In this document: positions 53,732 through 60,641 of the stretch, in pieces
Numbering within the stretch: position 1 is the first letter of the stretch
Layout: every line of letters starts with the position of its first letter
From: an uncultured Prevotellaceae bacterium
GTDB lineage: Bacteria; Bacteroidota; Bacteroidia; Bacteroidales; Bacteroidaceae
Length of the DNA: 64,000 nucleotides
Assembly: GCA_947168555.1 (NCBI GenBank)
Contig: CAMVMJ010000006.1
Coordinates: forward strand, 648-64,647
Reading direction: 5' to 3'
Made by a program: the position numbers and the translations under genes
The notes under the pieces: model-generated
Told to the model about the DNA's origin: nothing
Seen by the model: only the letters and a program-made list of their open reading frames with translations
Database searches by the model: none

Positions 53732-53771
53732 AAAAAAAAGCCCTTCCGCAGGTCAAGAATCGCGGAAGGGC
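53732..53771 (-). terminator. intrinsic terminator after 53794..54135
   Basis: On the minus transcript, GCCCTTCCGC / GCGGAAGGGC form a 10-bp stem with a 12-nt loop, followed by U8. Confidence 0.8.
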
Positions 53772-53793: not shown

Positions 53794-54135
53794 TCAATCA
53801 ACTGACTTGGTGCGTGCCTCAAAATCACGTCCAGTCTTAAAAGAAGGCATCTCAGGGGCGGTGATGGTGATGACCACTTCGCTACCCTCTGCCAGAAGCA
53901 ACGTCTCATCAATCGTGTTGATGGAGAGTGTTCCGTTTTCTACAGAATAACGTATTGCACTGGTGAGCAGGCTGTCTTCTGCAGAGAGGTTGATGCCATA
54001 CTGGCTGCCGCGAATCACGCGAACACGTGCGGGGACATTGACTTTCACCTCGCTGAAGGCGTTTATGTTCTTCACCTCAGCATTCATGCCAAGCGTCATC
54101 ATCACGACAGCAATAAGAACCAATACTTTTTTCAT
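53794..54135 (-). CDS. small exported DUF2807/GIN-domain-like protein
   Basis: 113 aa. Signal peptide MKKVLVLIAVVMMTLGMNA. The segment FSEVKVNVPARVRVIRGSQYGINLSAEDSLL resembles the N-terminal part of putative auto-transporter head (GIN) domain proteins. Confidence 0.65.
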   Translation of the reverse strand: MKKVLVLIAVVMMTLGMNAEVKNINAFSEVKVNVPARVRVIRGSQYGINLSAEDSLLTSAIRYSVENGTLSINTIDETLLLAEGSEVVITITAPEMPSFKTGRDFEARTKSVD

Positions 54136-54211
54136 CTTTCAAACAATCTTTTTACCTTAATAATAAAGTAGCTGCCCTTCTCCGGGGCTGCGCTTTTCTC
54201 TAAAAGCACTG

Positions 54212-54219
54212 CAAAGGTA
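54212..54219 (-). promoter_or_regulatory. Bacteroidota -7 promoter box (TACCTTTG) for 53794..54135
   Basis: The reverse complement of caaaggta. It predicts a 5' UTR of about 70 nt that includes 54141-54160. Confidence 0.55.
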
Positions 54220-59386: not shown

Positions 59387-60219
59387 TGAACGCGCAACGT
59401 ATTTTAGTTTGCGACAGCGGCTCGACAAAAGCCGACTGGCTCTACGCAAACGGCGACAGCGAAGAGGCCGTTCGAACGGATGGCATCAACCCAGTGCGCG
59501 ATTCCGGCGAAAGCATCAACAGGATTGTTACATCGCTCCCGGATTGGAAGCCGGAGTGCATCTACTTCTATGGTGCGGGATGCATTGAACCCTACTCTGC
59601 TTCCGTACGCAAGGCACTTCAAGAGCGCTTCCCACAGGCGGTTGTCAGCGTAGAATCCGATTTGCTGGGAGCTGCACGGGCGCTTTTCGGTCACGAGGAG
59701 GGCATCGCGTGCATTTTGGGCACCGGAAGCAACTCGTGCTTCTGCAAGGACGGCCAAATAAAGGCTAACGTGCCGCCCATGGGCTACATCCTGGGCGACG
59801 AAGGCAGCGGCGCCGTATTGGGACGGCAACTGGTCAGCGATATCGTCAAGGGGCAGTTGTCACAAGAGTTGAGAGATGCTTTTATGGAAGAATTTCAGCT
59901 CACCCCCGCCCTTATCGTAGAAAACGTCTACAGAAAGCCTGCGGCAAACCGTTTTTTGGCCTCGCTGTGCCCCTTTCTTTCCAAGCATCGGGATTACGAT
60001 GAAATTCAACGGCTTTTGGCAAGCGAATTCGAACGTTTTCTGAGAAGAAACGTTCTCCTTTACAACCGCCCGGATTTGGAGATACGTTATGTAGGCAGCA
60101 TCAGCGTGCATTTTGAGCACGAATTACGCAATGTTCATGCAAAAATGGGGTTAAAGATGGGGGACGTTTTAGCCTCTCCGGTGAAGAAAATGATGTTTTT
60201 TCACCACAAAAGCGCATAA
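59386..60219 (+). CDS. BadF/BadG/BcrA/BcrD-type ATPase (N-acetylglucosamine kinase-like)
   Basis: ORF 59203..60219. Start at MNAQRILVCDSGSTKADW (ATG overlaps the secG TGA). Motifs DSGSTK and LGTGSNS. Confidence 0.8.
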   Translation: MNAQRILVCDSGSTKADWLYANGDSEEAVRTDGINPVRDSGESINRIVTSLPDWKPECIYFYGAGCIEPYSASVRKALQERFPQAVVSVESDLLGAARALFGHEEGIACILGTGSNSCFCKDGQIKANVPPMGYILGDEGSGAVLGRQLVSDIVKGQLSQELRDAFMEEFQLTPALIVENVYRKPAANRFLASLCPFLSKHRDYDEIQRLLASEFERFLRRNVLLYNRPDLEIRYVGSISVHFEHELRNVHAKMGLKMGDVLASPVKKMMFFHHKSA

Positions 60220-60254
60220 ATTGCGAAAAACATGCTGCACAACACATGAAATTA

Positions 60255-60286
60255 TTTGTTTCGTTCGCAAAAAGGGGCTACCTTTG
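60255..60286 (+). promoter_or_regulatory. orphan canonical promoter TTTG-N20-TACCTTTG with no downstream ORF
   Basis: TTTG at 60255-60258 and TACCTTTG at 60279-60286. This is the same architecture as the two tRNA promoters in this window. There is no ATG in the next ~130 nt on the plus strand. Confidence 0.6.
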
Positions 60287-60292
60287 CAGCGT

Positions 60293-60375
60293 TCAAATAC
60301 AAAAAACAATCTTTTTACCTTAAACAAACTAATACCTAAAGTTTCGAAGAAAGGGCGCTGTGAAGCGCCCTCATT
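60293..60375 (+). ncRNA. candidate small RNA (~80 nt) ending at a GC hairpin
   Basis: Start predicted from the promoter. Hairpin AGGGCGC tgtgaa GCGCCCT at 60352-60371. Nucleotides 60304-60323 are perfectly complementary to the 5' UTR of 53794..54135. Confidence 0.4.
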
Positions 60376-60641
60376 CGTTATCCTAGGCGACTCTCAGACC
60401 GAAGTGTTTTACAGGCAATAAACCGGAGAGCGCATTCCTGCAGGCCTCATCCGCCCGTTTTGAACCCTCTGAGAACAGTCTGGGAACAGTCTGAGAACAT
60501 TACGAATAAGTGAGCGCAGAGATAAGCTTGGTTAATCTCTGCCGAGCGTAAGTAATGTCTGCGGCAAATAGCCGCGTGCTTTTGCTTCAGCAAATGCGGC
60601 CGAGCCTTCAAGCGATGGCAACAAAACGACAGTCTGAGAGA

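What the first reader, a model, noticed from the sequence alone, without database searches (positions are those of the whole stretch)
60255..60375. Orphan canonical promoter driving a candidate sRNA with 20-nt perfect complementarity to a distant translation-initiation region
Two convergent genes (ending at 60219 and 60642) are separated by a 420-nt spacer. In it sits TTTG-N20-TACCTTTG (60255-60286), exactly the architecture of the two tRNA promoters in this window. No ATG follows within about 130 nt. A GC hairpin (AGGGCGC tgtgaa GCGCCCT, 60352-60371) lies about 60-80 nt from the predicted start.

Nucleotides 60304-60323 of this transcript (AAACAAUCUUUUUACCUUAA) are identical to plus-strand 54141-54160. 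They are therefore perfectly complementary to the minus-strand mRNA of 53794..54135 at positions -25 to -6 relative to its AUG (UUAAGGUAAAAAGAUUGUUU gaaag AUG).

A 20-nt exact match within 64 kb is unlikely by chance. Its position over an A-rich initiation region, in a phylum that does not rely on Shine-Dalgarno sites, fits a trans-acting translational repressor.
Basis: seen in the sequence. Interest (0 to 1): 0.6.

Follow-up and report, generated by a model that had tools for sequence, protein, structure and literature searches.

The report
Conserved Bacteroidales sRNA with conserved target
This spacer holds a roughly 90-nt regulatory RNA gene of a widespread but functionally uncharacterised Bacteroidales family (BTnc060/ScnR157), and its invariant unpaired stretch matches the ribosome-loading region of a small exported-protein gene across about 40 related species, which gives the family a concrete, testable target.

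Summary

**The sRNA.** Window ~60290-60378 (+) is a small-RNA gene. It has a Bacteroidetes -33/-7 promoter, about 55 nt of unpaired 5' sequence and a GC terminator hairpin. It is not an orphan. It is a distant paralogue of Bacteroides thetaiotaomicron BTnc060 (Rfam RF04184: 54.9 bits, E 6e-8, below the curated cut-off). It also shares its 5' sequence with Segatella copri ScnR157. Both of those RNAs are validated by northern blot, and neither has a known function.

**Conservation.** The 20-mer is kept in 32 of 36 congeneric genomes. All nine terminator stem pairs show compensatory changes. In relatives that are 78% identical elsewhere, identity is complete from the -7 box to the terminator, apart from one compensatory stem pair.

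**The target.** The second copy (54141-54160) lies at -25 to -6 of a 113-aa signal-peptide/DUF2807 gene. Its 17-nt core is exact in 24 of 42 orthologues and matches at 15 or more positions in 36 of 42, always 4-8 nt before the ATG. The proteins themselves are mostly only 32-45% identical.

**Reading.** Translational repression by occlusion of the initiation region is the most likely mechanism.

**Limits.** Covariation is uninformative because both partners are invariant.

The scan met this RNA family before on other genomes, with different predicted targets.

The parts
60232..60248 (+). Conserved block upstream of the -33 element (ATGyTGCACAACACATG). It corresponds to the ATGTTA..TAACAT-type palindrome found upstream of family members. 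Candidate binding site for a transcription factor.
   Evidence: Invariant in the footprint alignment A3 while the neighbouring promoter spacer diverges. Palindromic versions appear in the genus loci and the Bacteroides-like loci and in the Rfam consensus. The function is inferred only.
60255..60286 (+). Bacteroidetes-type promoter: -33 TTTG (60255-60258) and -7 box TACCTTTG (60279-60286).
   Evidence: 6 sites in the window against 0.65 expected. A TAnnTTTG box sits at the same distance from the seed in almost all of 37 homologues. In B. thetaiotaomicron an internal TSS mapped by dRNA-seq (1645333) lies just after the equivalent box.
60290..60378 (+). Predicted sRNA transcript of about 85-90 nt. 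It is a type-1 paralogue of the BTnc060/ScnR157 family. The 5' end is predicted to within about 4 nt.
   Evidence: RF04184 match at 54.9 bits, E 6e-8. Identity is complete from the -7 box to the terminator, apart from one compensatory stem pair, against relatives whose flanks have diverged. The position downstream of the 338-aa gene is syntenic in 23 of 29 genus loci.
60304..60323 (+). Seed. The 20-mer is complementary to the target leader. The conserved core is 60307-60323 (CAATCTTTTTACCTTAA).
   Evidence: The columns are invariant in 36 aligned homologues. The region is unpaired in the consensus fold. The opening energy is 0.4 kcal/mol.
60329..60338 (+). Second conserved unpaired box, CTAATACCTA. 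It may be a second seed or a protein-binding site.
   Evidence: Nearly invariant in alignment A2 and in the Bacteroides-like loci. Its complement lies just upstream of the anti-seed in a few orthologous leaders only.
60352..60378 (+). Terminator hairpin with an 8-bp stem and a GUGA loop (60352-60371), followed by a weak U-tract (TCATTCGTT).
   Evidence: All 9 consensus stem pairs show compensatory changes across 36 homologues. One compensatory A-U to G-C change occurs in the closest relatives.
54141..54160 (-). Anti-seed site in the 5' UTR of the target mRNA, at -25 to -6 relative to the AUG.
   Evidence: The 17-nt core is exact in 24 of 42 orthologous leaders and matches at 15 or more positions in 36 of 42, ending 4-8 nt before the ATG. 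The central motif columns are 97-100% conserved (73-94% at the four 5' positions), against 29-94% (mostly 35-70%) in the flanking columns.
54136..54219 (-). Target promoter and leader: a -7 box TACCTTTG (reverse complement of 54212-54219), a leader of about 70 nt with an imperfect 5' hairpin, then the anti-seed.
   Evidence: The same layout (box, hairpin, A-rich stretch, anti-seed, ATG) appears in orthologues.
53794..54135 (-). Target gene. It encodes a 113-aa protein with an N-terminal signal peptide and half a DUF2807/GIN domain. It is monocistronic, with an intrinsic terminator at 53732-53771 on the minus strand.
   Evidence: Pfam PF10988 at 30 bits against a cut-off of 24.2. ORF. Terminator read. 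Orthologue alignment A1.
60391..60640 (.). MITE-like dispersed repeat that fills the rest of the spacer. It is not part of the sRNA.
   Evidence: Terminal inverted repeats at 60391-60408 and 60623-60640. About 15 partial copies at 76-90% identity lie elsewhere in the genome. Window ~60500-60628 is absent from the same site in the nearest relative, a 97%-identical MAG.

Best explanation
Window ~60290-60378 (+) encodes a trans-acting base-pairing sRNA. It is a paralogue (here called 'type 1') of the BTnc060/ScnR157 family of Bacteroidaceae/Prevotellaceae.

It is transcribed from its own TTTG/TACCTTTG promoter and ends at a Rho-independent hairpin. Its first ~55 nt are unstructured.

The invariant stretch CAAUCUUUUUACCUUAA, extended to 20 nt in this lineage, pairs with the A-rich leader of the monocistronic mRNA 53794..54135 (-). 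The paired site lies 5 nt upstream of the AUG, inside the 30S footprint. The mRNA encodes a small exported DUF2807 protein. Pairing most likely blocks initiation and so represses translation, and it may also destabilise the mRNA.

Shown here:
- the sequence features;
- homology to validated sRNAs;
- conservation and structure of the sRNA;
- conservation and position of the complementary site.

Inferred:
- transcription in this organism;
- that pairing occurs in vivo;
- that the outcome is repression.
For: **The sRNA**
- The exact 20-nt match has zero chance expectation, with only 2-3 copies in the genome.
- RF04184 matches the full model at E 6e-8. The seed, the second box and the terminator are the best-aligned part.
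- Family hits form a continuum from 37 to 192 bits in 106 of 141 genomes of the same family, and the B. thetaiotaomicron control scores above the cut-off.
- BTnc060 has a second dRNA-seq TSS that yields a ~95-nt isoform, which equals the homologous part. It is also northern-validated.
- The ScnR157 riboprobe primer carries the same 5' sequence, and that RNA is northern-validated in several Segatella species.
- The 20-mer is present in 32 of 36 congeneric genomes, with controls near zero.
- The layout of promoter, seed, second box and hairpin is the same in 37 loci.
- The seed is invariant and unpaired, and 9 of 9 stem pairs covary.
- A footprint with sharp edges and one compensatory change is seen against close relatives.
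- The position is syntenic in 23 of 29 loci.

**The target**
- The anti-seed core is conserved in 36 of 42 orthologous leaders at a fixed distance from the ATG. Most of those proteins are only 32-45% identical.
- All 5 genomes that were checked and carry the target gene also carry the sRNA.
- Near-complete genomes of four genera without the sRNA showed no orthologue of the small gene, only one weak hit to a longer DUF2807 protein.
- The duplex energy is -23.2 kcal/mol, against opening costs of 0.4 and 7.0 kcal/mol.
- GibS and FopS in B. thetaiotaomicron show experimentally that sRNAs with this architecture repress by binding initiation regions (PMC11697453).
Against:
- The Rfam score is far below the curated cut-off (54.9 against 228.9 bits).
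- The window's terminator has only a weak U-tract.
- The core is invariant in both partners, so there is no informative covariation. Conservation of the leader motif could also reflect a role independent of the sRNA, such as a translation enhancer.
- Two congeneric MAGs (G019, 61% complete; G023, 85% complete) keep the leader motif, but no sRNA was found in their assemblies.
- Five genomes with high-scoring BTnc060 homologues lack the small DUF2807 gene, so it cannot be the family's universal target.
- The second complementary site in this genome (17 nt, upstream of an 828-aa acyl-ligase/acyltransferase gene) is not conserved in 19 orthologues.
- Perfect pairing over 17-20 nt is unusually long for a trans-acting sRNA. 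It could partly reflect shared ancestry of the two sequences.
Confidence: 0.7

Rival explanations
1. The RNA is real but is made mainly as the 3' end of the upstream 338-aa gene's mRNA, as a 3'-UTR-derived sRNA released by processing, rather than from its own promoter.
For: The sRNA lies directly downstream of that gene in 23 of 29 genus loci. BTnc060 also has a longer isoform of about 218 nt that starts upstream. The Rfam model aligns across the end of the upstream ORF.
Against: A TAnnTTTG box at a fixed distance is conserved in nearly all homologues, including those in other genomic contexts. B. thetaiotaomicron has a primary TSS right after that box. The structured 5' half of the Rfam model is not conserved here. 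The two routes are not mutually exclusive.
Confidence: 0.12
2. The leader motif is conserved for a reason unrelated to the sRNA, for example as an A-rich translation enhancer or a protein-binding site. On this view the complementarity reflects common descent by an ancient inverted duplication and has no regulatory consequence. Alternatively, pairing activates the mRNA rather than repressing it.
For: G019 and G023 keep the motif without a detectable sRNA. Part of the mRNA site is predicted to be paired, with an opening cost of 7 kcal/mol, so pairing could remodel the structure. Some long leaders in relatives are complementary to the whole unpaired part of the sRNA, including the linker, which suggests copying.
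Against: Two independent loci each hold 17 invariant nucleotides across genera while their flanks diverge, which is hard to explain without interaction. Those two MAGs are incomplete. A duplex that ends 1-8 nt from the AUG lies inside the 30S footprint, which favours repression. The sRNA seed is essentially free.
Confidence: 0.13
3. There is no functional RNA. On this view the hairpin is only a shared terminator for the convergent genes, the promoter-like motif is fortuitous, and the 20-mer is a fragment of a repeat.
For: On the minus strand the hairpin is followed by a T-rich run, so it could also terminate the GTPase gene. The rest of the spacer is a dispersed repeat.
Against: The repeat does not include the 20-mer. 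The whole unit is conserved in 32 of 36 congeners and 106 of 141 family genomes. Homologues are detected as abundant RNAs in two cultured species.
Confidence: 0.04

Closest known systems
BTnc060 of Bacteroides thetaiotaomicron (Rfam RF04184)
   Same: The layout is identical: a TAnnTTTG box, an unpaired 5' region, the same 17-nt core and the CUAAUACCUA box, then a hairpin with a GUGA-type loop. The short isoform has a similar size of about 95 nt.
   Different: The score is only 54.9 bits against a cut-off of 228.9. The structured upstream half of the model is not conserved. The 5' GUUAUCCUGA box is replaced by GUUCAAAUACAAA in this sub-clade. The linker and stem differ. The genomic position is different (type 1, downstream of a 338-aa gene). 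The 2025 paper read here calls BTnc060 uncharacterised.
ScnR157 of Segatella copri HDD04 (El Mouali et al., bioRxiv 10.1101/2024.04.05.588293)
   Same: It comes from the same family of bacteria (Prevotellaceae). The published riboprobe primer carries the same 5' box plus seed. It is an intergenic sRNA that is strongly conserved within its genus and is northern-validated.
   Different: Only the primer sequence could be compared, not the full RNA. The authors report no function or target. ScnR157 keeps the 5' GUUAUCCU box, which the window copy lacks.
GibS and the FopS sRNA family of B. thetaiotaomicron (PMC7366714, PMC11697453)
   Same: They work the same way in outline. [quoted passage not shown]
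   Different: The sequence families are unrelated, and no Rfam match to them was found here. Their targets are SusC-like and glycoside hydrolase mRNAs. Their seeds are shorter. Their link to RbpB was shown experimentally, whereas nothing is known here.

Membership tests
Rfam RF04184 (BTnc060) | Covariance-model score at or above the curated gathering cut-off (228.9 bits) | tested here: not met
   54.9 bits. None of 141 same-family genomes reached the cut-off. Only the B. thetaiotaomicron control did, so the cut-off is essentially species-level.
Rfam RF04184 (BTnc060) | Statistically significant full-length match to the model | tested here: met
   E 6e-8 over model positions 1-213. Scores form a continuum from 37 to 192 bits across 30 of 35 genera.
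Rfam RF04184 (BTnc060) | Conserved unpaired core (17-nt seed plus the CUAAUACCUA box) followed by a terminator hairpin | tested here: met
   The core is identical in the window, 36 genus homologues and 12 Bacteroides-like loci. Covariation is seen in 9 of 9 stem pairs.
Rfam RF04184 (BTnc060) | Structured 5' half of the long isoform (model positions 1-120) | tested here: not met
   The alignment marks most pairs of that part as non-canonical in the window, and it overlaps the end of the upstream ORF.
Rfam RF04184 (BTnc060) | Detected as a discrete transcript | not testable with these tools
Evidence exists only for homologues.
Trans-acting base-pairing sRNA that represses at the initiation region (GibS/FopS-like mode) | Own promoter and intrinsic terminator in an intergenic region | tested here: met
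Trans-acting base-pairing sRNA that represses at the initiation region (GibS/FopS-like mode) | Accessible, conserved seed | tested here: met
   Opening energy of 0.4 kcal/mol. Invariant columns.
Trans-acting base-pairing sRNA that represses at the initiation region (GibS/FopS-like mode) | Complementary site that overlaps the ribosome-binding window of an unlinked mRNA and is conserved in orthologues | tested here: met
   The site lies at -25 to -6 and 6 kb away. It is conserved in 36 of 42 orthologues.
Trans-acting base-pairing sRNA that represses at the initiation region (GibS/FopS-like mode) | Compensatory co-variation between seed and target | tested here: inconclusive
   The core is invariant in both partners. 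Variation occurs only at the duplex edges and is not compensated.
Trans-acting base-pairing sRNA that represses at the initiation region (GibS/FopS-like mode) | sRNA-dependent change in target translation or mRNA level | not testable with these tools
   This needs reporter assays, toeprinting or knock-out experiments.

The most novel reading that the evidence does not exclude
The BTnc060/ScnR157 family may be a hub regulator with modular seeds, whose binding sites spread as inverted copies of the sRNA's own unpaired region.

Near-perfect 'anti-seed cassettes' of 17-45 nt are seen in relatives in four kinds of place:
- at start codons (DUF2807, lysA, an EF-G leader);
- in long 5' leaders that are complementary even across the sRNA's linker;
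- 3-19 nt after the stop codon of a conserved gene, just before its terminator;
- as a stand-alone transcript with its own promoter and terminator, 7 kb from the sRNA in a Bacteroides-like genome. This last one could be a sponge.

A 17-nt perfect site in this genome that is absent from all 19 orthologues examined would then be a recent acquisition.
Probability: 0.2. Interest if true: 0.8.

Novelty: new member of a known kind. Interest (0 to 1): 0.55.

Why it matters
BTnc060 and ScnR157 are abundant, conserved sRNAs of major gut and rumen Bacteroidales. The papers read here assign them no target or function. BTnc060 is upregulated in B. thetaiotaomicron cells adhering to the mucus-producing epithelium, and ScnR157 is among the sRNAs most downregulated in human stool samples compared with in vitro culture.

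A conserved partner would help in three ways. It gives a direct handle on the family's function. It defines which part of the RNA is the seed. It also offers a simple reporter system for RNA regulation in bacteria that lack Hfq and do not rely on Shine-Dalgarno sites. The partner proposed here is positioned precisely and is shared by many Prevotellaceae and Paraprevotella species.

The unusually long, AU-rich perfect duplex may also show what pairing rules apply in this phylum.

Tried and rejected
- **Rfam at gathering thresholds.** Only tRNAs were found. The family appeared only in the E-value scan.
- **Dispersed repeat.** Rejected for the 20-mer. The true dispersed repeat in the spacer lies at 60391-60640 and excludes it.
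- **Whole-molecule duplexfold against shuffles.** This was uninformative for long inputs. It was replaced by seed-only duplex and opening energies.
- **Second own-genome site (contig 3, 17 nt).** Tested for conservation in 19 orthologues and not conserved. It is kept only as a lineage-specific candidate.
- **The target in Bacteroides-like genomes.** The small DUF2807 gene was not found in five genomes with high-scoring BTnc060 homologues. Their hits to the 17-mer with 2 mismatches were mostly inside coding regions and at chance level.
- **Coding potential.** There is no ATG in the transcript. Positions are invariant regardless of codon phase, and homologues differ by indels of 1-3 nt.
- **Covariation between seed and target.** Not informative.
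- **BTnc060 in supplementary files.** It was not found in the RbpB CLIP paper's supplements.

Full report
**Observation**

- The 20-mer occurs exactly twice in the window, at 54141-54160 and 60304-60323, both on the + strand. No further hit appears even at three mismatches, and no shuffle gave a hit.
- The held assembly is a 1.36-Mb MAG, 54% complete. It has no other copy at two or fewer mismatches. A blast of the predicted RNA found one more exact 17-nt copy on contig 3.
- The spacer lies between convergent ORFs that end at 60219 and 60642.
- TTTG-N20-TACCTTTG lies at 60255-60286. This promoter pattern occurs six times in the window against 0.65 expected, and two of those sites precede tRNA genes.
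- The hairpin at 60352-60371 has an 8-bp stem and a GUGA loop.
- The organism is about 97% identical to the rumen MAG 'uncultured Prevotellaceae bacterium RUG598'.

**What the plus-strand element is**

An E-value scan of Rfam matched 60181-60378 to RF04184, the Bacteroides sRNA BTnc060, over the whole model. The score was 54.9 bits and the E-value 6e-8, well below the curated cut-off of 228.9. The 20-mer, the following CUAAUACCUA box and the terminator are the best-aligned part.

Across 141 genomes of the same GTDB family, the model hit 106 genomes in 30 of 35 genera. Scores ran continuously from 37 to 192 bits. Only the B. thetaiotaomicron control exceeded the cut-off. The cut-off is therefore close to species-specific, and the window's RNA is a distant homologue.

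Twelve Bacteroides-like loci show the same layout: a TAnnTTTG box, then CGUUAUCCUGAAAA, the 17-nt core, an A-run, CUAAUACCUAUUGAAAACUGAAAA, a hairpin with a GUGA loop and a U-run.

*Experimental evidence exists for homologues only.*
- Ryan et al. 2020 list BTnc060 at 1645239-1645457 (-) with two TSSs. The internal one, at 1645333, gives a ~95-nt RNA that corresponds to the part conserved here.
- Prezza et al. 2025 validated BTnc060 by northern blot. They found it dependent on growth phase and upregulated in the bacteria adhering to the mucus-producing epithelium, and they call it uncharacterised.
I checked this. The published riboprobe primer for ScnR157 carries the same 5' box and seed. ScnR157 is northern-validated in several Segatella species, and no function is given for it.

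**Conservation and structure**

- The 20-mer, at two or fewer mismatches, is present in 32 of 36 congeneric genomes. Reversed-pattern controls gave almost nothing.
- Thirty-seven loci share the architecture.
- In a 36-sequence alignment the seed columns are invariant and unpaired. All nine pairs of the terminator stem show compensatory changes.
- Two sub-types exist. Type 1 includes the window. It has the linker ACAAA and a GCUGUGAAGC-type hairpin top, and it lies directly downstream of a homologue of the 338-aa ORF in 23 of 29 genus loci and in Paraprevotella clara. Type 2 resembles BTnc060 proper and lies elsewhere.
- Two relatives are about 78% identical to the window at the target locus. 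At the sRNA locus they are identical to the window from the -7 box to the end of the terminator, apart from one compensatory A-U to G-C change in the stem. Promoter spacer and downstream sequence have diverged. This footprint sets the transcript at about 60290-60378.
- In this sub-clade the family's 5' GUUAUCCU box is replaced, but the replacement is itself conserved.

**The proposed target**

The ORF 53794..54135 (-) encodes 113 aa with a signal peptide and a partial DUF2807/GIN domain. Pfam gives 30 bits against a cut-off of 24.2. The gene has its own -7 box (reverse complement of 54212-54219), a leader of about 70 nt and its own terminator. The anti-seed occupies -25 to -6.

Five orthologues found through the 20-mer are only 34-39% identical in protein, yet they keep at least 18 of 20 leader positions.

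A profile search then returned 42 homologous loci. They come from rumen Prevotellaceae MAGs, Paraprevotella clara and MAGs labelled Bacteroides. Most are 32-45% identical. Among their leaders:

| Match to the 17-nt core | Loci (of 42) |
|---|---|
| 17 of 17 | 24 |
| 15 or more of 17 | 36 |

The core always ends 4-8 nt before the ATG. The central motif columns are 97-100% conserved (73-94% at the four 5' positions), against 29-94% (mostly 35-70%) in the flanking columns.

*Phyletic pattern.*
- All five genomes that were checked and carry the gene also carry one or two sRNA paralogues.
- Five near-complete genomes from four genera without the sRNA showed no orthologue of the small gene, only one weak hit to a longer DUF2807 protein, and no exact motif.
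- Two congeners lack both the sRNA and the gene. Two incomplete MAGs keep the motif with no sRNA found in the assembly.
- Five genomes with strong BTnc060 homologues lack the gene, so the family must have other targets there.

*Energetics*:

| Quantity | kcal/mol |
|---|---|
| Duplex, 20 bp | -23.2 |
| Duplex, 17 bp | -19.7 |
| Opening cost, sRNA | 0.4 |
| Opening cost, mRNA | 7.0 |

**Mechanism**

The duplex ends 1-8 nt from the AUG, within the region covered by an initiating 30S subunit. That region is an A-rich leader, in a phylum that does not depend on Shine-Dalgarno pairing. The best-supported model is therefore translational repression by occlusion. This is the mechanism shown experimentally for GibS and FopS, which have the same architecture. 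Transcription here, pairing in vivo and the direction of regulation are all inferred.

**Limits**

The core is invariant on both sides. The outer three pairs of the 20-mer vary on the target side without compensation.
- The second complementary site in this genome lies at -31 to -15 of an 828-aa acyl-ligase/acyltransferase gene. It is absent from 19 orthologues.

**Comparison and novelty**

This is a new, divergent member of a known sRNA family. The new element is a conserved, precisely placed candidate target for a family whose function the papers read here leave open. Earlier follow-ups in this scan met the same family in other genomes. They proposed that its 5' GUUAUCCU box docks on AGGAUAAC leader motifs. 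The window copy lacks that box, and the target found here uses the neighbouring seed instead. The two predictions are therefore complementary.

**Other observations**

These are listed separately under the items noticed in passing:
- a MITE-like repeat that explains the long spacer;
- a conserved palindrome-like block upstream of the promoter;
- several classes of anti-seed sites in relatives.

Noticed in passing
window 60391-60640: MITE-like element with terminal inverted repeats (CTCTCAGAC ... GTCTGAGAG) and internal 11-nt tandem units. About 15 partial copies at 76-90% identity lie elsewhere in the genome. In the nearest relative, a 97%-identical MAG, about 129 nt (window 60500-60628) are missing at the same site. 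This element accounts for the unusually long spacer.
   Followed up: partly
window 60232-60248: A block just upstream of the -33 element is invariant in close relatives. It corresponds to an ATGTTA-N-TAACAT-type palindrome upstream of family members in other genera and in the Rfam consensus. It may be an operator for an unknown regulator of the sRNA.
   Followed up: partly
own genome G000 contig C3:124774-124790 (locus L167/L168): A 17-nt exact anti-seed lies at -31 to -15 of an 828-aa fused AMP-binding/acyltransferase gene. It is preceded by five tandem 7-mers (gacaatt/gataatt). The site is absent from 19 orthologues in the genus, so it may be a recent acquisition.
   Followed up: yes
L039, L047, L048, L051 (four congeneric genomes): An anti-seed (18-19 of 20 positions) sits 3-19 nt after the stop codon of a conserved gene of about 160-200 aa, immediately before that gene's intrinsic terminator. 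It may be a 3'-UTR target or a sponge site.
   Followed up: partly
L130 (G098, a Bacteroides-like genome), 7 kb from its BTnc060 homologue: A TAnnTTTG-type box (TACTTTGC) is followed by a short stretch that is imperfectly complementary to much of the sRNA's unpaired region (seed plus flanking boxes), and then by a strong terminator. It looks like a stand-alone anti-sRNA or sponge transcript.
   Followed up: no
L152, L153, L057, L055, L036, L163 (relatives): Long 5' leaders on the opposite strand are complementary to the seed, the linker and the second box of the sRNA. They look like inverted copies of the sRNA's 5' region, sometimes with two anti-seed-like repeats.
   Followed up: no
L033 (G025); L013 and L035 (G016, G032): Anti-seed-like sequences occur 18 nt upstream of an EF-G-like gene, where the complementarity extends over the 5' box. 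They also overlap the start codon and first codons of a diaminopimelate-decarboxylase-like gene (MVKRLFQ...).
   Followed up: no
window 54212-54136 (-) and orthologous leaders (L062-L103): The target leaders share a conserved architecture. A GC hairpin sits close to the 5' end (often CCCCTGGCGAGGGG), followed by an A-rich unpaired stretch that carries the anti-seed.
   Followed up: partly
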